DNA of 44,652 nucleotides from a virus (lineage: Duplodnaviria; Heunggongvirae; Uroviricota; Caudoviricetes). Positions 17,985 to 25,581 of the stretch are shown here, one piece after another (position 1 is the stretch's first letter; each line of letters starts with the position of its first letter). A program made the position numbers and the translations under genes. Location of the stretch: the IMG/VR virus record IMGVR_UViG_3300045988_039442, positions 1-44,652 of that record; one strand, given 5' to 3'. The notes under the pieces are model-generated. The model saw only the letters and a program-made list of their open reading frames with translations. It made no database searches and was not told where the DNA came from.

Positions 17985-18397
17985 TGGGCTACTTTGAGGA
18001 TTTAACAAAAGCGTTCGATGTGCCGCTGGTAGCCTTCGGAACCGCCAACGGCATCAAGGTTGCTCTTGAAAACATCGACGCGCCGACGTCAACCAATACC
18101 CCGTATCTGGCAAGTTACATGTTGCTGGCAGATACGGAGCAGGCGGATTTGTTCTTCACGGAACAACGCGCCGGTGTCTATCAGGTAGATATTAACTACG
18201 CATCTGTGAAAGGTAGCGCGCCAATCAATAAAATGGCAGACTTACTTAACACGGCGTTTAAAGCAGGTAAGTCATTTTCACGTAACGACATCTGCGCCGA
18301 GGTTCAATCGGTTAGCCTGGGGCCGCTGATTGTAGAAAACGGATGGGCCAAAAGACCATTGTCAATTAACTTTATTGCATTCACCAAGAGGCTGTGA
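17981..18397 (+). CDS. tail terminator/tail completion protein (putative)
   Basis: Position immediately upstream of the major tail gene. Confidence 0.45.
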   Translation: MMGYFEDLTKAFDVPLVAFGTANGIKVALENIDAPTSTNTPYLASYMLLADTEQADLFFTEQRAGVYQVDINYASVKGSAPINKMADLLNTAFKAGKSFSRNDICAEVQSVSLGPLIVENGWAKRPLSINFIAFTKRL

Positions 18398-18399
18398 AT

Positions 18400-19566
18400 A
18401 TGGCTACAACTCCTTTTAAGGGCGCGACTACCGCGCAATTCTATGTGGCGGAAACTACCCCGGGCGTAACTCCAGACAACCCTGTCTGGTCGCCGTTGCG
18501 TAACACTGGCGGTGTTCCTGCTATTACCCGCGACACGCTGACCTCCAATGAACTTGACGGCAGCCGTGAAACTACGTCCATCCGCACCGGCAACAAACAG
18601 GTTAGCGGAGAATACGCCATCGAGCTTAGTTCGAAAAGCCAGGATGACTGGCTGGCAGGTGCTTTAGGCTCTACGTGGCAATCCGGTGCATCGCTGTCCG
18701 GGCTGTCGATTACCGTCGCACCTGAAGGCAAGACGTTCACCCGTGCCGAAGGTAGCTTTATTTCTGACGGCGTTGAGGTAGGCGACCTGATTGCGTTTAC
18801 CGACTTAACCGGCGACAACGCAAAACCGTTTATCGTCACTGCGGTAACCGCCACGGTTGTTACTGGCGCAGGTATCCAACACCCTCTGACCGTCGAGACA
18901 AAAACCAGTAAGGCTAAGACAGGCGACAAACTGGAAACCGGCAGTCAGTGTAAGACGTTCTCTATTCTCACGTGGTACAAAGGCCAGTGTGGTGGGGCCG
19001 ACGCGTACACGCTGACAAAAGGTGTGGAAGTTTCCGGTTTTACCATCGAACAAGCTGTTAACGCGATGGTAACTGGCAGCTTCCCGTTCATCGGGCGCGG
19101 CCAGGAGATTCTCACTACGCCACCGTCTGGTTCTGACTTCTCCTCTGTTACGTTTGGTGATGAGCCGTTCTCCTCCGTTGACGTTTCCGTGTTTGACGGC
19201 TCTACACCGTTGCGTTGCGATAGTCTGGCCATCACCAACGACAACAGCGCGTCCGCACAGTTCGAACTCGGCAACACTAACGTAGCGTTTGTGGAGCGTA
19301 GCCGCGCGGCTAACACCTTCTCCATCTCCGGCAAGCTGTACGACATGGCTATGATTCAGAAGTTTATCAACGAGCAGCAGGTAGAGATTAATTCTATTCT
19401 GGCGGGGGTAAACGGAGCTATGTCTTTCAGTTTAAAACGTGCAGAGCTTACGGCGGTTACGCCTGAGATTGGCGGGCCTGAGTCAATCACTCAGTCCATT
19501 GAAGGCCAGGCTACCGGTAACCAGTACCAGTCGTCTATTGTTATCCAGCGTATCACCTACGCATAA
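18400..19566 (+). CDS. major tail protein with C-terminal Ig-like extension
   Basis: About 390 aa upstream of the chaperone/tape-measure genes; ATG at 18400 after AAGAGG (GTG at 18394 is the alternative). Confidence 0.65.
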   Translation: MATTPFKGATTAQFYVAETTPGVTPDNPVWSPLRNTGGVPAITRDTLTSNELDGSRETTSIRTGNKQVSGEYAIELSSKSQDDWLAGALGSTWQSGASLSGLSITVAPEGKTFTRAEGSFISDGVEVGDLIAFTDLTGDNAKPFIVTAVTATVVTGAGIQHPLTVETKTSKAKTGDKLETGSQCKTFSILTWYKGQCGGADAYTLTKGVEVSGFTIEQAVNAMVTGSFPFIGRGQEILTTPPSGSDFSSVTFGDEPFSSVDVSVFDGSTPLRCDSLAITNDNSASAQFELGNTNVAFVERSRAANTFSISGKLYDMAMIQKFINEQQVEINSILAGVNGAMSFSLKRAELTAVTPEIGGPESITQSIEGQATGNQYQSSIVIQRITYA

Positions 19567-19759: not shown

Positions 19760-20329
19760 TCACGCATTTGGATAAATCCCCAGGATTCTATTAGCAATCG
19801 CAGCCGCTGTTAATGTAATCTCGCCTGGGATGACCACAACGTCATGGCATACCGCACCATCAATATCGTACAGGTAACCACGACTATCCCCGTCAAACGT
19901 ATAGCCGTCTCTGTGCAAGCGAACGATTCTTACATCATGCCCCGCGGCGACGATGGGGGCCACTTCACTGGCGAATCCACCGTCGGACACTACAAAAACT
20001 TCGTCGCCGTCGGACAAGTTTCCGGCAAGATACTTACCGAAATAATCGTCACCGAATACCGGTTTAATGAATTGCTCAGAAATGGCAATCATGAACTGAC
20101 GACGTGACAACCCATTAAGAAAACCCTCTGGCTTTTCTTTCCGCGCCCTGTCGTCGTAGCCGTCGAGAAACTCGTGGTAAGTATCCGGGCCTAACGCTGC
20201 AAGAGCGATATTGAACATTGGATTCTTGAAACTGGTAGTCGCATTCGCAAAGCCCATTTCTACCAGCGCCATAGCGAGTGTGTCTTTTCCGCAGCCCGCA
20301 GGACCATTAAGAATGATTACCTTAGCCAT
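19760..20329 (-). CDS. P-loop nucleotide kinase, dNMP-kinase-like (T4 gp1-like GKDT Walker A)
   Basis: N-terminal VIILNGPAGCGKDT; small (189 aa); last gene of the leftward operon. Confidence 0.5.
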   Translation of the reverse strand: MAKVIILNGPAGCGKDTLAMALVEMGFANATTSFKNPMFNIALAALGPDTYHEFLDGYDDRARKEKPEGFLNGLSRRQFMIAISEQFIKPVFGDDYFGKYLAGNLSDGDEVFVVSDGGFASEVAPIVAAGHDVRIVRLHRDGYTFDGDSRGYLYDIDGAVCHDVVVIPGEITLTAAAIANRILGIYPNA

Positions 20330-20814
20330 TATTTATTGCTCCCGTGTGGTTTTAAGTGAGTAGAGTTCCCGTTACAGTCGTATTCAGTAACCGCGTGCGT
20401 CGTGATTCCTAAGCCACGGAAATGCTTTATCACCGCTGGGGAGTCATCGAACGCACACAAGATTCTTTCCAGCCCGATAGCGCGCAACACCTCTTCTTTA
20501 ATTACGATGTCTTTTCTGTTGTCGTGTTTGCTGCGCATGATTAGCTGATAAAATTCGACGCGGTGGCGCTGCAACCACATTCTGGTTTCTTTTTCTGCGT
20601 CATCACTGCGACCGGTTAAAATAATAGCGGCGTATCGCCGATTAAGGGCGTTACACAGCTCGATATTATCTCTAATTGGTTCATCATCTTTGCACGCCAT
20701 GTTAAATGGCTTCCACGCCCATGTTTCGTTGTAGTTATCTTTCGGCAGAAGGTGCAAACGATGTGTCCCATCCGCCAATGTCCCGTCTAAATCGAAAATT
20801 ACAATATCTTTCAT
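20329..20814 (-). CDS. HAD-family phosphatase resembling the polynucleotide kinase 3'-phosphatase domain
   Basis: DLDGTL motif at the N-terminus; the RKDIVIKEEV ... FDDSPAVI segment resembles the T4 Pnk phosphatase domain from memory. Confidence 0.5.
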   Translation of the reverse strand: MKDIVIFDLDGTLADGTHRLHLLPKDNYNETWAWKPFNMACKDDEPIRDNIELCNALNRRYAAIILTGRSDDAEKETRMWLQRHRVEFYQLIMRSKHDNRKDIVIKEEVLRAIGLERILCAFDDSPAVIKHFRGLGITTHAVTEYDCNGNSTHLKPHGSNK

Positions 20815-21941
20815 CCCAACATCTCCGGTGAAATAGTTAAACGTGCAACCTCGCCGTATTCGGCGCTATAAGTAATTACATTTGCACTGCGTCCCGACAT
20901 CCACCCACCGCGAGAAGCATATGCATCTTTCGCCGCGAGAGTGCGATGCTGCTCAACAATCATGTTACGGCTTTCTACAATCTTCTGGTGGTGCAGGTGC
21001 CCAACGTGGGCGTAGCTATAAACGCTCTCGCCGAACGCTTTGCGGAACTTAGCAATCATAACCGGTTCGATAGCGTCAAATCGCGCCTTATGCCCGTGGT
21101 GAAAGAACAATGTCGTTTTGCCGTGTTGCACCATCTTGTAAACATCCGGCGATGTATCCACTGTCACTCGGCTGTCGTTTGAGTATAAAGTCGTGAACAT
21201 TTCCGCCAGCCATACAGACCCTACAGGGTCGTGATTTCCTTGCACGATAAGCAAGCGAACAGATTTATGCTTAACCAGTGCCATATCAACAACACGGCGA
21301 ACCATACGAATCATGTAGCGGACAAGTTTCTGGTAGCGAGTGTCTGCGTCCAACACATGACGCGACTCAGGGGTAACGGCATCAAGACTATCGAAGTGTG
21401 CGAAGTCCCCCAGCAGGTTAATAACCCCAGTTCCAGCATCTGGTGCTTTCTGAAACGCCGCATCGAACCAACGGGAGAACAAGTCTTCAGCAATCTTCAT
21501 ATCCCAGTCGTCGCCGCTCTCGTCGGCCCAGGCCAGCATACCGAGATGGAAATCAGATACAGTGTAAAGATTGAGTAGTTTATCGTCACGTTTGGTGCGA
21601 GCGGCTTTAACAGGTGCAACCGGCGTAATCTCCGACTTCATACCTTCGATTACGGCTTTCATTAATTCTACCTGACGTTCGGCATCGGTGTCGGTCTTAA
21701 CCCATTGCAACTTAGTATTGCCGAACTCGTCCACCAGAGACGACGTGCCTTTAATCTTGTAGCCGTCCGGAACAAGGTGGCTAACGTCCAGCCCGTGGCC
21801 TACGCCTTTCTTTGCCAGCTTCGCTTTACGGATTCTGATAACGCGGTCTGAGACGCCGTATTTACGAGCTATATCGATATTCCTCACACCGGCGTTCAAT
21901 TCTTCCTGTAACTGCTCGTCGGTTATTTTCTTCCGGGCCAT
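20811..21941 (-). CDS. calcineurin-like metallophosphoesterase with N-terminal HTH domain
   Basis: Motifs SDFHLG, GDFAHF, GNHD, HHGH and GHLHH; RBS ACGAGGAAG. Confidence 0.6.
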   Translation of the reverse strand: MARKKITDEQLQEELNAGVRNIDIARKYGVSDRVIRIRKAKLAKKGVGHGLDVSHLVPDGYKIKGTSSLVDEFGNTKLQWVKTDTDAERQVELMKAVIEGMKSEITPVAPVKAARTKRDDKLLNLYTVSDFHLGMLAWADESGDDWDMKIAEDLFSRWFDAAFQKAPDAGTGVINLLGDFAHFDSLDAVTPESRHVLDADTRYQKLVRYMIRMVRRVVDMALVKHKSVRLLIVQGNHDPVGSVWLAEMFTTLYSNDSRVTVDTSPDVYKMVQHGKTTLFFHHGHKARFDAIEPVMIAKFRKAFGESVYSYAHVGHLHHQKIVESRNMIVEQHRTLAAKDAYASRGGWMSGRSANVITYSAEYGEVARLTISPEMLG

Positions 21942-22006
21942 GCTTACTTCCTCGTGTTTAGGATTTGTCCTATTTAACCATAGTGCATTCCTTTAAATAA
22001 AGGCGA

Positions 22007-22333
22007 CTATTTACTTTCCGCGCCTATCGCCCACCCGGTCATTACCATTTGCAGACGGGTAGCCGTTAGTAGGCTGTAAAACGCGTCTCCGTTTTTCTCT
22101 ACCGAACGTATTACCGTGTATGTTACGGCTTGAGGAGGTAAGCCCGATTTACCAACCTCTACGGCAGCCTCACACTCGCCAACTGTAGAGTCCTTAAATG
22201 CCTTTACGATAGTAGTGTCGGCTTTCTCAAGCACGCCAGAAGTCATAAGAACAGATTCACTAAATACCTGTTCGCACGGGGACCCAAAAGTAGCAAAAGA
22301 CATAAACCCCAGAGCCAATACTAATTTACGCAT
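22007..22333 (-). CDS. small secreted/periplasmic protein with signal peptide
   Basis: N-terminal MRKLVLALGFMSFATFG signal-like segment; first gene after the conserved promoter. Confidence 0.5.
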   Translation of the reverse strand: MRKLVLALGFMSFATFGSPCEQVFSESVLMTSGVLEKADTTIVKAFKDSTVGECEAAVEVGKSGLPPQAVTYTVIRSVEKNGDAFYSLLTATRLQMVMTGWAIGAESK

Positions 22334-22358
22334 AATTATTTCCTCAGTAAGTTACAGG

Positions 22359-22390
22359 TGAATAGTACCCTATTATATTGGGGTGTGCAA
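22359..22390 (-). promoter_or_regulatory. conserved promoter/operator element, copy 3, leftward
   Basis: TGAATAGTACCCTATTATATTGGGGTGTGCAA; drives the four-gene leftward operon 22333 to 19760. Confidence 0.55.
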
Positions 22391-22497
22391 GTAGTGTGCT
22401 AGAATAAGTTTGCGCCTAGTGTCGCACACGAAAAGCGGGTGGTTCCCGTCTGGCGCATTTTCCTTAACCTGTAACCTCTTAACCAAAGGATCAAAGA

Positions 22498-22914
22498 ATG
22501 AAACTTTCTGATTTTTATTTTGCGGACCGCCATGCTGTAGGCACTAAAATGCCTATCCTTCTGCCGAGTGGTAAAGATTCCGGTGAATGGCTGCAGGTGA
22601 TTGGCCCTGATTGTGACGAGGGTGTTCGCGCAGGCCGCGCCTACACAACGGCAATTCGACGCCTTACGGAAGAGCTTGCACCCTTAGATAAAGAGTGCGA
22701 GGCACTGAATAACTGGGCGCGCTATAACGATGAAAAGGGCTGGCGGGTGATGGACCTGAACAAGCAGCTTGCCGTGGAAATCGTCACCGGTTGGTCATTC
22801 GACGAACCGTTCAGCAAAGAAGCGCTGGCTAACCTGTTCGACCAGTACAGTGGGCTGGCGGAGGCCGTAGTTAAGCATCACACCGACAGTCGTGAGAAAC
22901 TCTCGGAAAAGTAA
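22498..22914 (+). CDS. tail assembly chaperone (G-like)
   Basis: Located between the major tail and tape-measure genes; RBS AAGGA. Confidence 0.6.
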   Translation: MKLSDFYFADRHAVGTKMPILLPSGKDSGEWLQVIGPDCDEGVRAGRAYTTAIRRLTEELAPLDKECEALNNWARYNDEKGWRVMDLNKQLAVEIVTGWSFDEPFSKEALANLFDQYSGLAEAVVKHHTDSREKLSEK

Positions 22915-23276
22915 AAGCGCTGTATGAATTTGCGCAATGGTGCTTTGTCGACCGCCACAAACGTAAGCAATTCGACGACATCGCGGCGGGGCACCAGGCG
23001 GCTTTGATTGCAATGGGCGTGATTAAAGAACCGCAGATGAAAGAAACGACGGGGCCTGAATGCCCCGTTTCTCTTATCGACGTGTTCGAGAAATACCGCG
23101 CCATTAAATTCCTACAGCGTGAAACAGATGATACTATCGTTATAATCCCGCGCGATGCGCTCAAATGGCAAGATTTGGTAGCGTTTCGTGATGTCGCCGG
23201 TTACGGCATAAGTTTGTTCGAAGCCGAGGTTATCATGGGCTTAGACGGAATATTTGAGGGCAGAGAAGATGGCTGA
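22498..23276 (+). CDS. tail assembly chaperone GT-like fusion via putative -1 programmed frameshift near 22905-22911
   Basis: The -1 frame is open from 22896 to 23276 and overlaps the end of the G frame; G GAA AAG sits just before the G stop; the extension ends at the tape-measure start. Confidence 0.45.
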
Positions 23277-25581
23277 TACGGCTTCCCTAATTGCCAGAGT
23301 AAAAACAGAAGGCGCTGACGTAGCCGCCAAACAGCTTGACGCTATGGCGGCATCCGCAGACCGGGCGGACACATCTGTAAACAAACTAACGCCTGACGTT
23401 AATAAAGTAAACTCCGCTACGTCTAAAGCGGCCTCTGACGGTTTCGCTAAATTCCGTAACGCCGCTGGGCAGGTTGGCTTCCAGGTGCAGGACATGGTTG
23501 TCCAGTTGCAATCTGGTACGTCCGCATTCGTCGCGATAGGACAGCAAGGTTCACAGCTTGCGGGGGCCTTCGGCCCTGGTGGTGCGGTGCTGGGGGCTGT
23601 AATTGCTCTCGCGTCAGCAATCGGTGGTGTCCTGTACAAATCGCTAACCGAAGCAGAAGGCAGTTCAAAAGACCTCGAAGCCGCACAGAAACAGTTGAAA
23701 GATACTTTTCAGCAAACAGCATCCGGCTCTCTCGAACTGACAGACGGCCTTATCCAGCTTACCCAAATCAGCAGAGAAGCGGCTGAGACTCAGCTTGCTC
23801 TGGCTAAGGCTAACGCAGACCTTATCGCGCAGCAAACAGCTAAAGCCGTTCGTGAGGACGCAGAATCATGGGAAACATGGAAAGCCTCCACGGCATCGGC
23901 TATTAGCCAGTATGACGCGCTGGTCTCTAAGGGTGCGGATGTAGGCGACACGTTAGAAAAACTAGGCGGCACCTACGAGGGCAACATCGTAGGCGTCAAC
24001 ATGCTGGCACAGAATATCGCGGAGCTTAGTAGTAAGTTCGGAGTTAACCGCGACCAGGCCCTGGAGATGATAGCGGCGCAGAGCGCGTTTAATAAAGAGC
24101 CAACAGCCGAGAATGCCCGTCGCATCGCCGATGTGTTTACCGACTGGCTCGGTAATACAAAACAGTTGAACCCGGAACTTATCCGCCTGACCGACAATGC
24201 CAACAAGAACGCCACGGCACTGGAGAACGCAGAGAAGTCAGCAAACGCGGCGGCAGAGGCTCAAAAGAATCTTGGTCGTAACGTTAACTCAACCACGCAG
24301 AGATTCCAGGAACAGAACGAAGCTATCGTCAAGAATCAGCAAATTGCCATCTTAAGCGACCGTGAGCGTATCCGGGCGCAAGCTGAACTTGATAAGCAGG
24401 CATTCGCTAAACGTGAAGCTGTCACCAAAGAGCAGATAGCCGCGTATAACGCGGCCCGGGATGCGGAAGCGCGGCAAGACATCGCTCGCATCGACGCGAC
24501 CGAAAAAGCGAAGGCAGACCGAGAGGCTAAATCGAACGAGAAACGTCTGGCTGCGCAGGCCAAACGTGAAGAAACGGCAGCAGAACGTCAGAAAAAAGCG
24601 GCGGAAGATTTCCTCGCTACGGTTGACCGCACAACTGGAGACGAAATTTCACGCATCACAGCGGCAGAAGAACAGAAACTGGCGAAACTGGAGGAGTTCA
24701 ACCGTGCCGGAACGATAAGCCAGCAGCAGTACGAAAACGCCAAAACTCAAATTATGCTCACAGCCGAGCAGGCCAGACAGGAAGAACTGGATAAGAAAAG
24801 AAAAGAAGCCCAGGAAAAGCAGCAGAAAGGCGACGACTTCATGGCCCAGATTATGGGTCAGAACGCCGCCGAGCTTGAGCTTCTCGACATCCAGGAACAG
24901 CAGAAACTGGCGGTGGCGGATAAGTACCGTGAGCAGGGTCTGATTAGCGAGAAGCAGTATCAGGCTGCGCTTAACGCCATCAACGAGCAGTACGCCACAA
25001 AGCGTGCCGACGCAACGGCAACCGCCTTTGGTAACATGGCTTCAAACATCGGGTCTGCGTTGGGCGAGGCTTCTGGCGCGTACAAGGCATTTGCTATCGT
25101 ACAGGCCACCATAGCCACGTACACCGCAGCTATTGAGGCGTACAAGTCCACGGCAGCTATCCCTGTAGTCGGTCCGTTCCTGGCACCTGTAGCCGCCGCC
25201 GCTGCCGTTGGGGCGGGTATGGCGCAGATTTCCGCTATCAGATCTGCGCGTGAACAGGGCGGTCAGTTATCCGCGGGGCAGGCTTCCACCATCGCCGAAC
25301 GTGGTAAACCTGAGGTTATCATGCCCGCTGGCGCATCGCGTGTTCGCACCGCGCAGCAGATGAAAGAAATTATGGGGCAAAACGGGTCTTCTTCCGGCCC
25401 GTCTAATGTTACCATCGTAAACAACACGAGTTCTCAGATTGGCAACGTATCCACTGAACAAGATGATGAAGGCCGTTTGCGTATCATCATTGAAGAGCAA
25501 GTGGCGGCCTCTTTGCAGAACAGCAACAGTAAGATTAGCAAGGCCCGCAAGGCCACAAGAAACGCGCCGGGGTTCAAATAA
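23269..25581 (+). CDS. tail tape measure protein
   Basis: About 770 aa, Ala/Gln/Glu-rich predicted coiled coil with a hydrophobic Gly-rich segment; canonical position. Confidence 0.8.
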   Translation: MADTASLIARVKTEGADVAAKQLDAMAASADRADTSVNKLTPDVNKVNSATSKAASDGFAKFRNAAGQVGFQVQDMVVQLQSGTSAFVAIGQQGSQLAGAFGPGGAVLGAVIALASAIGGVLYKSLTEAEGSSKDLEAAQKQLKDTFQQTASGSLELTDGLIQLTQISREAAETQLALAKANADLIAQQTAKAVREDAESWETWKASTASAISQYDALVSKGADVGDTLEKLGGTYEGNIVGVNMLAQNIAELSSKFGVNRDQALEMIAAQSAFNKEPTAENARRIADVFTDWLGNTKQLNPELIRLTDNANKNATALENAEKSANAAAEAQKNLGRNVNSTTQRFQEQNEAIVKNQQIAILSDRERIRAQAELDKQAFAKREAVTKEQIAAYNAARDAEARQDIARIDATEKAKADREAKSNEKRLAAQAKREETAAERQKKAAEDFLATVDRTTGDEISRITAAEEQKLAKLEEFNRAGTISQQQYENAKTQIMLTAEQARQEELDKKRKEAQEKQQKGDDFMAQIMGQNAAELELLDIQEQQKLAVADKYREQGLISEKQYQAALNAINEQYATKRADATATAFGNMASNIGSALGEASGAYKAFAIVQATIATYTAAIEAYKSTAAIPVVGPFLAPVAAAAAVGAGMAQISAIRSAREQGGQLSAGQASTIAERGKPEVIMPAGASRVRTAQQMKEIMGQNGSSSGPSNVTIVNNTSSQIGNVSTEQDDEGRLRIIIEEQVAASLQNSNSKISKARKATRNAPGFK

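What the first reader, a model, noticed from the sequence alone, without database searches (positions are those of the whole stretch)
22896..23276. Putative -1 programmed frameshift producing a G/GT-type tail assembly chaperone
The -1 frame relative to the chaperone gene is open from 22896 to 23276 and overlaps its last 6 codons. The heptamer G GAA AAG sits just before the stop; it is close to but not identical with the lambda G GGA AAG slippery site. The extension ends exactly where the tape-measure gene starts, the conserved arrangement in long-tailed phages.
Basis: partly seen in the sequence, partly recalled or inferred. Interest (0 to 1): 0.4.

Follow-up and report, generated by a model that had tools for sequence, protein, structure and literature searches.

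The report
Phage tail-chaperone frameshift at a stop codon
This is the usual tail-assembly chaperone frameshift of long-tailed phages, already annotated in close relatives, but here the ribosome slips on a short non-standard signal (A-AAG directly against the stop codon) rather than on the textbook seven-base site.

Summary
The chaperone gene G (22498..22914) ends ...G_GAA_AAG_TAA. The -1 frame is open 22896..23276 and ends in ATGGCTGA, overlapping the tape-measure start (23269). The window is a Kagunavirus-like E. coli siphophage.

RefSeq records of phages K1H (the window's 22400..23400 region is 94% identical to it) and fFiEco03 already annotate the same joined 259-aa product, and PHROG 15027 is a 259-position fused profile. 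The existence of the frameshift is therefore already known as a prediction; I found no experimental proof.

Comparison of 18 lineages (GT 44-99% identical among the 14 that were aligned) supports -1 frameshifting. T is conserved and codon-periodic from its first codon. Its first possible start codon wanders from codon 5 to codon 95. Distant G homologues carry canonical heptamers in the overlap.

It is G_GNA_AAG (fifth base free) always abutting UAG or UAA, never UGA, followed by an invariant GCG-YUG block. These are the only aa-invariant codons in GT without synonymous variation. No conserved downstream structure or Shine-Dalgarno-like stimulator was found.

Side findings are a covarying int-alpA-like RNA in the operon leader and a terminator-like hairpin inside T.

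The parts
22498..22914 (+). Gene G: tail assembly chaperone, 138 aa, 15.65 kDa, zero-frame product ending ...REKLSEK-stop
   Evidence: ORF list. Pfam PF08748 Phage_TAC_4 scores 35.9 bits against a cutoff of 21.1. phrog_15027 positions 1-138, E=5e-65. Mass.
22905..22911 (+). Shift site G_GAA_AAG. The invariant core is the A_AAG tetramer at 22908..22911 plus the G at 22906. Base 22907 is free in relatives (A, U, C or G).
   Evidence: A_AAG is invariant in 18 of 18 lineages, and the preceding codon is GAA, GUA, GCA or GGA.
22912..22914 (+). Stop codon TAA of G, directly abutting the shift site. Relatives use TAG (13) or TAA (5), never TGA. It is the proposed pause element ('shifty stop').
   Evidence: Window-wide stop usage is TAA 28, TGA 25, TAG 7.
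22917..22923 (+). Conserved 3' block GCGCTGT (GCG-YTG in 18 of 18 lineages), encoding Ala141-Leu142 of GT. Role unexplained; candidate linear 3' context element.
   Evidence: of 28 aa-invariant 4/6-fold codon columns, only V139, A141 and L142 use a single codon in the 14 aligned lineages; position +8 is C in 16 and T in 2 of the 18. No structure found.
22911..23276 (+). T extension in the -1 frame (121 aa plus stop TGA at 23274..23276). The frame is open from 22896. The fused CDS is join(22498..22911, 22911..23276), giving GT of 259 aa and 29.4 kDa with junction ...LSEK|VKALYEF.
   Evidence: Pfam PF23812 Phage_TAC_18 scores 64.5 bits against a cutoff of 27. phrog_15027 positions 138-259. Codon-position periodicity and N-terminal conservation.
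23269..25581 (+). Tape measure protein gene. Its ATG overlaps the T stop (ATGGCTGA).
   Evidence: phrog_1538 E=5e-198. The overlap is conserved in most lineages.
22409..22473 (+). Structured leader RNA upstream of G (int-alpA-like). Part of the operon but not of the frameshift signal.
   Evidence: Rfam RF02996 scores 33.5 bits against a gathering score of 35.8. The same position is hit in 7 of 15 relatives. 8 of 14 pairs covary, 100% of cells pair, and 0 of 500 shuffles reach the observed values.
23048..23069 (+). Terminator-like hairpin inside the T coding region (8 bp, 6 GC, then TCTCTTATC).

Best explanation
Most ribosomes translating G terminate at TAA (22912) and release the 15.7-kDa chaperone G. 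A minority slip back one base when tRNA-Lys is on AAG (22909-22911). tRNA-Lys re-pairs with AAA (22908-22910), the next codon read is GUA, and translation continues in the -1 frame to 23276. This yields the 259-aa GT fusion (...LSEK-VKALYEF...).

By analogy with lambda G/GT, the G part would bind the tape measure protein encoded immediately downstream, and the T part would recruit the tail tube protein.

Shown here: the anatomy, the conservation of the shift site, and that T is coding from its first codon without a start of its own.

Inferred: that slippage occurs, that the abutting UAA/UAG slows decoding and acts as the stimulator, that re-pairing of tRNA-Glu on GGA (C:G, U.G, U:A) helps in this particular phage, and the function of the two products.

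The confidence given (0.85) is for a -1 frameshift at A_AAG producing GT. The sub-claim that the stop codon is the stimulator is about even odds.
For: 1. A_AAG directly followed by UAR is invariant in all 49 IMG/VR loci with a G homologue of at least 44% identity whose 3' end lies on the contig, and in 7 GenBank relatives. The last 15 codons of G otherwise vary at 38 of 45 positions.

2. A_AA.G is the most shift-prone -1 tetramer in E. coli (Sharma 2014, PMC4066793). NNA_AAG hexamers are used naturally by IS1222 and B. subtilis cdd (Atkins 2016, PMC5009743). E. coli has a single tRNA-Lys for AAA and AAG, and the phage encodes no tRNA.

3. The T sequence KVxALYxFAxWxFV...KFDxI..GH is conserved from the first -1 codon. 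Mean pairwise difference over the first about 31 codons is 0.28, 0.27 and 0.57 at -1-frame codon positions 1, 2 and 3.

4. The first ATG, GTG or TTG in the T frame sits at codon 5, 11, 13, 32, 35, 48, 58 or 95, depending on lineage.

5. Synonymous variation is absent only at K138, V139, A141 and L142, out of 50 aa-invariant degenerate columns.

6. Distant G homologues (29-35% identity) have canonical heptamers T_TTT_TTC or A_AAT_TTT in their G/T overlap, and L040 has lambda's G_GGA_AAG at the same place.

7. phrog_15027 is a fused 259-position profile. RefSeq records for K1H and fFiEco03 annotate the join.

8. The +1 frame is closed.
Against: I found no experimental detection of GT for this clade.

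The site is not a canonical X_XXY_YYZ heptamer. The Shashou genome announcement states that there is 'no canonical slippery sequence' and annotates T as a separate gene (PMC6776780).

A_AAG alone is barely above background in reporter assays without a stimulator. I found no conserved downstream structure: RNAalifold consensus energy -0.1 kcal/mol, window z-score -0.25, and pairing probability of the 3' block ranging from 0.02 to 0.85 between lineages. I also saw no conserved SD-like motif upstream.

The role of the stop codon and of GCG-YUG is inferred from conservation only. The AlphaFold model of GT was too poor (pLDDT 47) to add structural support.
Confidence: 0.85

Rival explanations
1. 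T is an independent gene. Ribosomes initiate or re-initiate after G's stop at the CTG at 22920 (TTG in Jerseyvirus and Shashou), using GGAA within the 'slip site' as a weak Shine-Dalgarno. Alternatively they start at the internal TTG 23004 or ATG 23013. No fusion protein is made.
For: Several GenBank records annotate it this way: Bas75 from the position equivalent to 22920, EF2-1 from the ATG equivalent to 23013, and S102 and Shashou from a TTG 6 nt after the stop, with an annotated RBS in GGAA. The YTG at +8 is nucleotide-invariant. Gene callers in metagenomes produce T-only ORFs of 76-118 aa.
Against: The codon is CTG, a very poor initiator in E. coli (my own knowledge), in 16 of 18 lineages. 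Lineages ending GCA_AAG or GUA_AAG have no GGA upstream of it.

This model gives no reason for the invariance of A_AAG or of the G at -6 while the rest of G's C-terminus drifts.

The internal Met of IAMG is Ile in four lineages, and the first start codon wanders from codon 5 to codon 95. No SD lies at proper spacing before 23004 or 23013. The 31 conserved, codon-periodic codons upstream of 23004 would be untranslated. Distant homologues carry canonical heptamers.
Confidence: 0.08
2. A frameshift does occur, but as classical lambda-type tandem slippage of two tRNAs on the heptamer G_GAA_AAG with AAG in the A site. The neighbouring stop codon and the GCG-YUG block play no part in it.
For: G at -7 (15 of 18 lineages) and G at -6 (18 of 18) keep first-position re-pairing of the P-site tRNA. 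For GAA->GGA, two Watson-Crick pairs and one G.U pair remain. L040 has the perfect heptamer G_GGA_AAG. V_VV.A_AA.G heptamers are the best in E. coli.
Against: In GUA, GCA and A/C_GCA lineages the P-site tRNA cannot re-pair at one or two positions, yet the arrangement is kept.

Stop adjacency is invariant, and TGA is never used although it would keep Val139 (GTG) and makes up 25 of 60 stops in the window. Synonymous sites of the three codons 3' of the site are frozen.

The product would be identical, so sequence alone cannot separate the two models.
Confidence: 0.3
3. G and T are one gene broken by a sequencing error or a recent inactivating indel (pseudogene). Alternatively, the fusion is made by transcriptional slippage on the A run.
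For: The two frames differ by a single base at a short A run (AAAA).
Against: The same two-frame layout occurs in more than 50 independently sequenced genomes and metagenomic contigs spanning 44-99% protein identity. No in-frame fused homologue appeared among 28 database hits. Four A's are far shorter than the runs of about 8-9 or more that are known to support RNA-polymerase slippage (my own knowledge).
Confidence: 0.02

Closest known systems
Phage lambda G / GT tail assembly chaperones (Levin 1993; Xu, Hendrix & Duda 2004, 2013, 2014; as summarised in PMC5009743)
   Same: Two overlapping ORFs lie directly 5' of the tape-measure gene, with the second in the -1 frame and lacking its own start. 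The slip is on ...A_AAG by tRNA-Lys. A short product and a C-terminally extended fusion are expected at a high:low ratio. No downstream structure was detected here.
   Different: Lambda uses the perfect heptamer G_GGA_AAG. Here the site is G_GAA_AAG (G_GNA_AAG across the clade) and always abuts the stop codon. The major tail gene is not adjacent; four minus-strand genes (19760..22333) intervene. The Pfam families differ from what I recall for lambda G (here PF08748 and PF23812).
ORF19A/ORF19B of Escherichia phage K1H (NC_027994.1) and the 'tail assembly chaperone frameshift product' of fFiEco03 (NC_073315.1); PHROG 15027
   Same: Same genes. K1H is 94% identical in DNA over the window's 22400..23400 region, has an identical shift-site sequence, and annotates a joined CDS of 259 aa.
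   Different: None of substance; this window is another isolate of the same clade. Those records give no signal analysis, and other records of the clade annotate T as a separate gene.
Hexanucleotide/tetranucleotide -1 sites NNA_AAG: IS1222 (G_CGA_AAG), Bacillus subtilis cdd (A_CGA_AAG), IS3 (A_AAG plus pseudoknot)
   Same: Slippage relies on tRNA-Lys moving from AAG to AAA, with little or no re-pairing of the 5' tRNA. The identity of the 5' codon modulates but does not define the site.
   Different: The IS3 site works with a downstream pseudoknot. [quoted passage not shown] Neither kind is detectable here, where the stop codon abuts the site and a short unstructured 3' block is conserved.
'Shifty stop' recoding (Weiss 1987; prfB and antizyme +1 shifts)
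   Same: A stop codon in the A site next to a slippery P-site codon, with slow termination giving time to slip.
   Different: The well-studied natural cases are +1 shifts. Here the shift would be -1, and the involvement of the stop is inferred only from its invariant adjacency and the exclusive use of UAG or UAA.

Membership tests
Lambda-type G/GT tail assembly chaperone pair made by -1 programmed frameshift | Pair of ORFs immediately upstream of the tape measure gene | tested here: met
   G is 22498..22914 and the T frame runs to 23276. The TMP ATG at 23269 overlaps the T stop. TMP matches phrog_1538 with E=5e-198.
Lambda-type G/GT tail assembly chaperone pair made by -1 programmed frameshift | Pair lies directly downstream of the major tail (tube) gene | tested here: not met
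   The probable tube gene (18394..19566; phrog_290; the syntenic gene is called 'tail tube protein' in 37P2 and Shashou) is separated from G by four minus-strand genes, 19760..22333.
Lambda-type G/GT tail assembly chaperone pair made by -1 programmed frameshift | Second ORF overlaps the first in the -1 frame and has no conserved start codon or RBS of its own | tested here: met
   19-nt overlap. The first start codon in the T frame is at codon 32 here and at codons 5-95 in relatives, while T is conserved from codon 1.
Lambda-type G/GT tail assembly chaperone pair made by -1 programmed frameshift | Canonical X_XXY_YYZ slippery heptamer in the overlap | tested here: not met
   The window has G_GAA_AAG. 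Only L040 has G_GGA_AAG. Distant homologues L049-L052 have T_TTT_TTC or A_AAT_TTT.
Lambda-type G/GT tail assembly chaperone pair made by -1 programmed frameshift | Sequence membership of curated tail-assembly-chaperone families | tested here: met
   PF08748 scores 35.9 bits (cutoff 21.1). PF23812 scores 64.5 bits (cutoff 27). phrog_15027 covers both halves. There is no PDB relative by sequence, and the structure model is unusable.
Lambda-type G/GT tail assembly chaperone pair made by -1 programmed frameshift | Fusion protein actually made at a low percentage and required for tail assembly | not testable with these tools
   Needs a western blot, mass spectrometry or genetics. No publication on this clade with such data was found.
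Tetra/hexanucleotide A_AAG (NNA_AAG) -1 shift sites of Enterobacteria | Zero-frame A_AAG inside the overlap, conserved among relatives | tested here: met
   22908..22911, invariant in 18 of 18 lineages.
Tetra/hexanucleotide A_AAG (NNA_AAG) -1 shift sites of Enterobacteria | Host decodes AAA and AAG with one tRNA-Lys (UUU anticodon), and no phage tRNA-Lys(CUU) | tested here: met
   No tRNA gene in the window. The single E. coli tRNA-Lys is established knowledge (PMC5009743). The host is inferred from relatives.
Tetra/hexanucleotide A_AAG (NNA_AAG) -1 shift sites of Enterobacteria | Accompanying stimulator: upstream SD-like sequence or downstream hairpin/pseudoknot | tested here: not met
   No conserved upstream motif. 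RNAalifold gives -0.1 kcal/mol with no covariation. Window fold z-score is -0.25. Per-lineage folds are inconsistent.
'Shifty stop' sites | Stop codon immediately 3' of the slippery codon | tested here: met
   TAA at 22912..22914. Adjacency holds in 18 of 18 lineages: TAG 13, TAA 5, TGA 0.
'Shifty stop' sites | Shift efficiency depends on the stop codon and release-factor level | not testable with these tools
   Needs reporter assays with altered stops or altered RF1 level.
Rfam RF02996 int-alpA RNA (side finding, leader 22409..22473) | Score at or above the family's gathering threshold | tested here: not met
   33.5 bits against 35.8. Relatives score 27.8-34.7 bits.
Rfam RF02996 int-alpA RNA (side finding, leader 22409..22473) | Conserved secondary structure supported by covariation | tested here: met
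   14 pairs, 100% of cells paired, 8 pairs with compensatory changes, 0 of 500 shuffles reach the observed values, and slid controls pair at 64% or less.

The most novel reading that the evidence does not exclude
The Guernseyvirinae chaperone genes may use a distinct, structure-independent class of -1 frameshift signal. It would consist of a relaxed heptamer G_GNA_AAG whose efficiency is set by an abutting RF1-readable stop codon (UAG or UAA, never UGA) and by a short linear 3' element, GCG-YUG, lying 9-14 nt from the first base of the P-site codon. If that position is at the mRNA entry channel, the element would act through contacts with the ribosome rather than through RNA folding. If so, the frozen synonymous sites mark a new kind of 3' stimulator, and the G:GT ratio could respond to release-factor activity.
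Probability: 0.3. Interest if true: 0.5.

Novelty: already known. Interest (0 to 1): 0.27.

Why it matters
For annotation, the clade (504 phage records carry this G gene) is annotated inconsistently. A few records carry the joined CDS. Most list T as a 'hypothetical protein' with arbitrary starts. One paper states that no slippery sequence exists (PMC6776780). The comparative result gives a clear rule for the whole subfamily: join at A_AAG|UAR.

For recoding biology, the site is a natural and deeply conserved example of a non-canonical hexamer/tetramer -1 site abutting a stop codon, with no detectable RNA structure and with a frozen 3' block. That makes it a compact test case for stop-codon-assisted -1 slippage and for 3'-context effects. 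Frameshift predictors trained on canonical motifs and downstream folding energies may well miss it.

Tried and rejected
1. Downstream stimulatory structure. RNAalifold on 14 lineages, a single-sequence fold with shuffles, and per-lineage pairing probabilities of the 3' block showed nothing conserved.

2. Upstream SD-like stimulator. Columns -45 to -8 are variable, apart from a T at -11 (17 of 18 lineages).

3. Rfam scan of 22300..23400 for a known frameshift element. There was none; the only hit was the leader RNA.

4. Structure route. The AlphaFold2 model of GT with 24 sequences gave pLDDT 47 and pTM 0.30, so no fold search was run. phmmer against PDB sequences found nothing.

5. Large protein database searches with GT and with T. 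They returned only G-only and T-only ORF calls, with no natural in-frame fusion and no named proteins.

6. The T-internal hairpin (23048..23069) as a frameshift stimulator. Rejected because it lies 136 nt 3' of the stop. RNAalifold on 16 lineages gave no common register, and it is absent in Jerseyvirus.

7. Key papers could not be read. Xu 2004, Licznar 2003 and Anany 2015 are not held. One literature search returned nothing.

8. The +1 frame as an alternative extension is closed after 4 codons.

Full report
**What is there**

The window's 22400..23400 region is 94-96% identical in DNA to Kagunavirus phages of E. coli (K1H, L AB-2017, Bas70-76 and others).

Gene G runs 22498..22914 (138 aa). 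It matches Pfam Phage_TAC_4 and positions 1-138 of PHROG 15027. It ends CTC TCG GAA AAG TAA.

In the -1 frame there is a TGA at 22893-22895, and the frame is then open to the TGA at 23274-23276. Its translation matches Pfam Phage_TAC_18 and positions 138-259 of the same PHROG 15027. That profile is therefore built from fused 259-aa proteins with the junction ...SEK|VKAL....

The tape-measure gene (phrog_1538, E=5e-198) starts at the ATG at 23269, overlapping the T stop as ATGGCTGA.

**Is it more than chance?**

A 126-codon open -1 frame is unlikely by chance: P is about 9e-5 from the stop density in -1 frames of this window's genes, and 18 of 20000 shuffles stay open. That only shows the frame is coding, because -1 ORFs running past stops are frequent in this packed genome.

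The real question is frameshift versus independent initiation. G is the only one of 60 ORFs here that ends in A_AAG plus stop. The T frame has no ATG, GTG or TTG for 32 codons after the shift point. The +1 frame closes after 4 codons.

**Comparative evidence**

A scan of IMG/VR returned 49 loci with G homologues from 99% down to 29% identity. tblastn found the gene in 504 phage records, mostly Salmonella Jerseyvirus and Escherichia Kagunavirus, that is, Guernseyvirinae.

- **The layout is conserved.** In every locus with at least 44% identity whose G 3' end is on the contig, G ends ...A_AAG_TAR, and the -1 frame continues for 119-121 codons past G's stop to the tape-measure start.
- **T is conserved from its first codon.** In 14 representative lineages (GT 44-99% identical) the T sequence KVxALYxFAxWxFV..K.KFDxI..GHEAALIAMG is conserved from the very first -1 codon.
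- **There is no conserved start.** The first possible start codon sits at codon 5, 11, 13, 32, 35, 48, 58 or 95.
- **The frame is coding immediately after the stop.** Mean pairwise nucleotide differences over the first about 31 codons are 0.28, 0.27 and 0.57 for -1-frame codon positions 1, 2 and 3.
- **The G C-terminus drifts.** It varies at 38 of 45 nucleotide positions, but A A A G T A is invariant.
- **Distant homologues use textbook sites.** The 29-35% identical homologues carry T_TTT_TTC or A_AAT_TTT in their overlaps.

The gene family is therefore frameshift-expressed in general, and this clade has a derived site.

**What the signal really is**

Over 18 lineages the motif is G(-7, 15/18) G(-6, 18/18) N A A A G | U A R | N N G C G Y U G.

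The codon before AAG is GAA (as here), GUA, GCA or GGA (one locus has lambda's exact heptamer).

- **P-site re-pairing.** For GAA the P-site tRNA could re-pair on GGA with one G.U pair. For GUA and GCA it could not.
- **Closest resemblance.** The site is most like the NNA_AAG hexamers and the A_AAG tetramer described for IS1222, cdd and IS3 (PMC5009743). A_AA.G is the best tetramer in E. coli, but it needs a stimulator to exceed background (PMC4066793).
- **No classical stimulator.** There is no conserved SD-like motif. The consensus structure energy is -0.1 kcal/mol with no covariation. The fold z-score is -0.25. Per-lineage folds are inconsistent.
- **The stop codon.** The stop directly abutting the site is conserved instead. 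It is UAG in 13 lineages, UAA in 5 and UGA in none. UGA would preserve Val139 and accounts for 25 of 60 stops in this window.
- **The frozen 3' block.** Among 28 aa-invariant columns with 4- or 6-fold degenerate codons, only V139 (GUA), A141 (GCG) and L142 (CUG) use a single codon in the 14 aligned lineages. Among 22 aa-invariant 2- or 3-fold columns, only K138 (AAG) does. Two further lineages have UUG for L142.

The suppression of synonymous change is thus confined to the shift site and the few codons after it. I read this as a 'shifty stop' with a 3' context element. That part is inference, and the role of GCG-YUG is unexplained.

**Rivals**

Independent initiation of T is what several GenBank records imply, and Shashou's authors wrote that there is no canonical slippery sequence (PMC6776780). 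The proposed start is CUG in 16 of 18 lineages. Several lineages lack any SD-like GGA. The internal Met is not conserved. This model also leaves the invariance of A_AAG unexplained.

Plain tandem slippage without any role for the stop gives the same protein and cannot be excluded from sequence. A sequencing error, a pseudogene or transcriptional slippage is excluded by the conservation across more than 50 genomes and by the short A run.

**What is known already**

RefSeq NC_027994.1 (K1H; ORF19A and ORF19B) and NC_073315.1 (fFiEco03; 'frameshift product') annotate the same joined CDS.

The existence of the frameshift is therefore already known as a prediction. I found no experimental verification. 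What appears not to be written down is the definition of the conserved non-canonical signal.

**Context and side findings**

G heads a rightward tail operon: G-T, the tape measure gene, minor tail genes and a tail tip gene. It follows a block of four leftward genes. The probable tube gene lies 2.9 kb upstream.

The 164-nt leader contains a promoter-like site (22351..22379) and a structured RNA at 22409..22473. The RNA matches Rfam int-alpA just below threshold, here and in 7 of 15 relatives. It shows strong covariation: 8 of 14 pairs, 100% of cells paired, and 0 of 500 shuffles reaching the observed values.

Inside T, a GC-rich hairpin followed by a U-rich tract (23048..23069) recurs in about half of the lineages. 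It is often a convincing intrinsic-terminator shape, but it is absent in Jerseyvirus.

**Verdict**

This is a real and conserved feature, correctly read by the first stage. It is ordinary in kind and already annotated in relatives. It has one modestly interesting twist: a non-canonical, stop-abutting shift signal with frozen 3' codons.

Noticed in passing
window 22409..22473 (+); also L030:1412-1476, L044:1414-1477, L056:711-775, L010:1412-1476, L016:1225-1289, L012:1412-1479, L046:1415-1461: A structured RNA lies in the 5' leader of the G-T-tape-measure operon. It has an outer stem enclosing two hairpins with an invariant GAAAAGCG between them. It matches Rfam RF02996 (int-alpA RNA) just under the gathering score (33.5 against 35.8 bits), at the same place in 7 of 15 relatives. 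8 of 14 pairs show compensatory changes, 100% of cells pair, and 0 of 500 shuffles reach the observed values. Its function is unknown; it may regulate the tail operon.
   Followed up: partly
window 23048..23069 (+), inside the T coding frame: A terminator-like hairpin, GACGGGGCC-TGAAT-GCCCCGTT followed by TCTCTTATC, overlies the conserved G-P-E-C-P motif. In about 9 of 18 lineages the homologous spot is a strong hairpin followed by TTTTTAT (for example L030: 9 bp, -19 kcal/mol). L012 and L015 fold into a hairpin there with a different sequence. It is absent in Jerseyvirus. It could be a partial intrinsic terminator that lowers tape-measure transcription relative to G. This was not tested.
   Followed up: partly
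window 22917..22923 (+): The block GCGCTGT (GCG-YTG in 18 of 18 lineages) just 3' of the stop has frozen synonymous sites without any detectable pairing partner. It is unexplained: it could be a 3' context element for frameshifting, a cryptic YUG start, or a recombination junction.
   Followed up: partly
window 19760..22333 (-): Four leftward genes are inserted between the probable tail tube gene (18394..19566) and the chaperone gene, breaking the usual tube-G-T-TMP order. They are dNMP kinase-like, polynucleotide kinase-like, a DNA repair exonuclease/metallophosphoesterase, and a 108-aa protein whose syntenic neighbours are annotated as superinfection immunity protein.
   Followed up: no
window 22351..22379 (+): A sigma-70-like promoter match (GTTACA, 17 nt spacer, TATATT; 9 of 12) lies in the divergent intergenic region. 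It would place the int-alpA-like RNA in the 5' UTR of the chaperone operon. A second match lies inside T at 23119..23146 (GTGAAA, 16 nt spacer, TATAAT; 10 of 12).
   Followed up: no
L049-L052 (IMG/VR contigs, G homologues of 29-35% identity): Distant members of the same chaperone family carry canonical heptamers (T_TTT_TTC, A_AAT_TTT, T_TTT_TTT) 5-19 codons before the G stop. The clade containing the window has therefore exchanged a canonical site for the stop-abutting A_AAG site during evolution.
   Followed up: partly
GenBank records PQ850596 (Bas75), PQ571290 (EF2-1), NC_073199 (S102), MK931440 (Shashou), NC_069156 (Otaku), ON107243 (37P2): Annotation of T is inconsistent across the subfamily. 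It appears as separate ORFs with starts at four different positions, or is missing altogether (37P2). Only K1H and fFiEco02/03 carry the joined CDS.
   Followed up: yes
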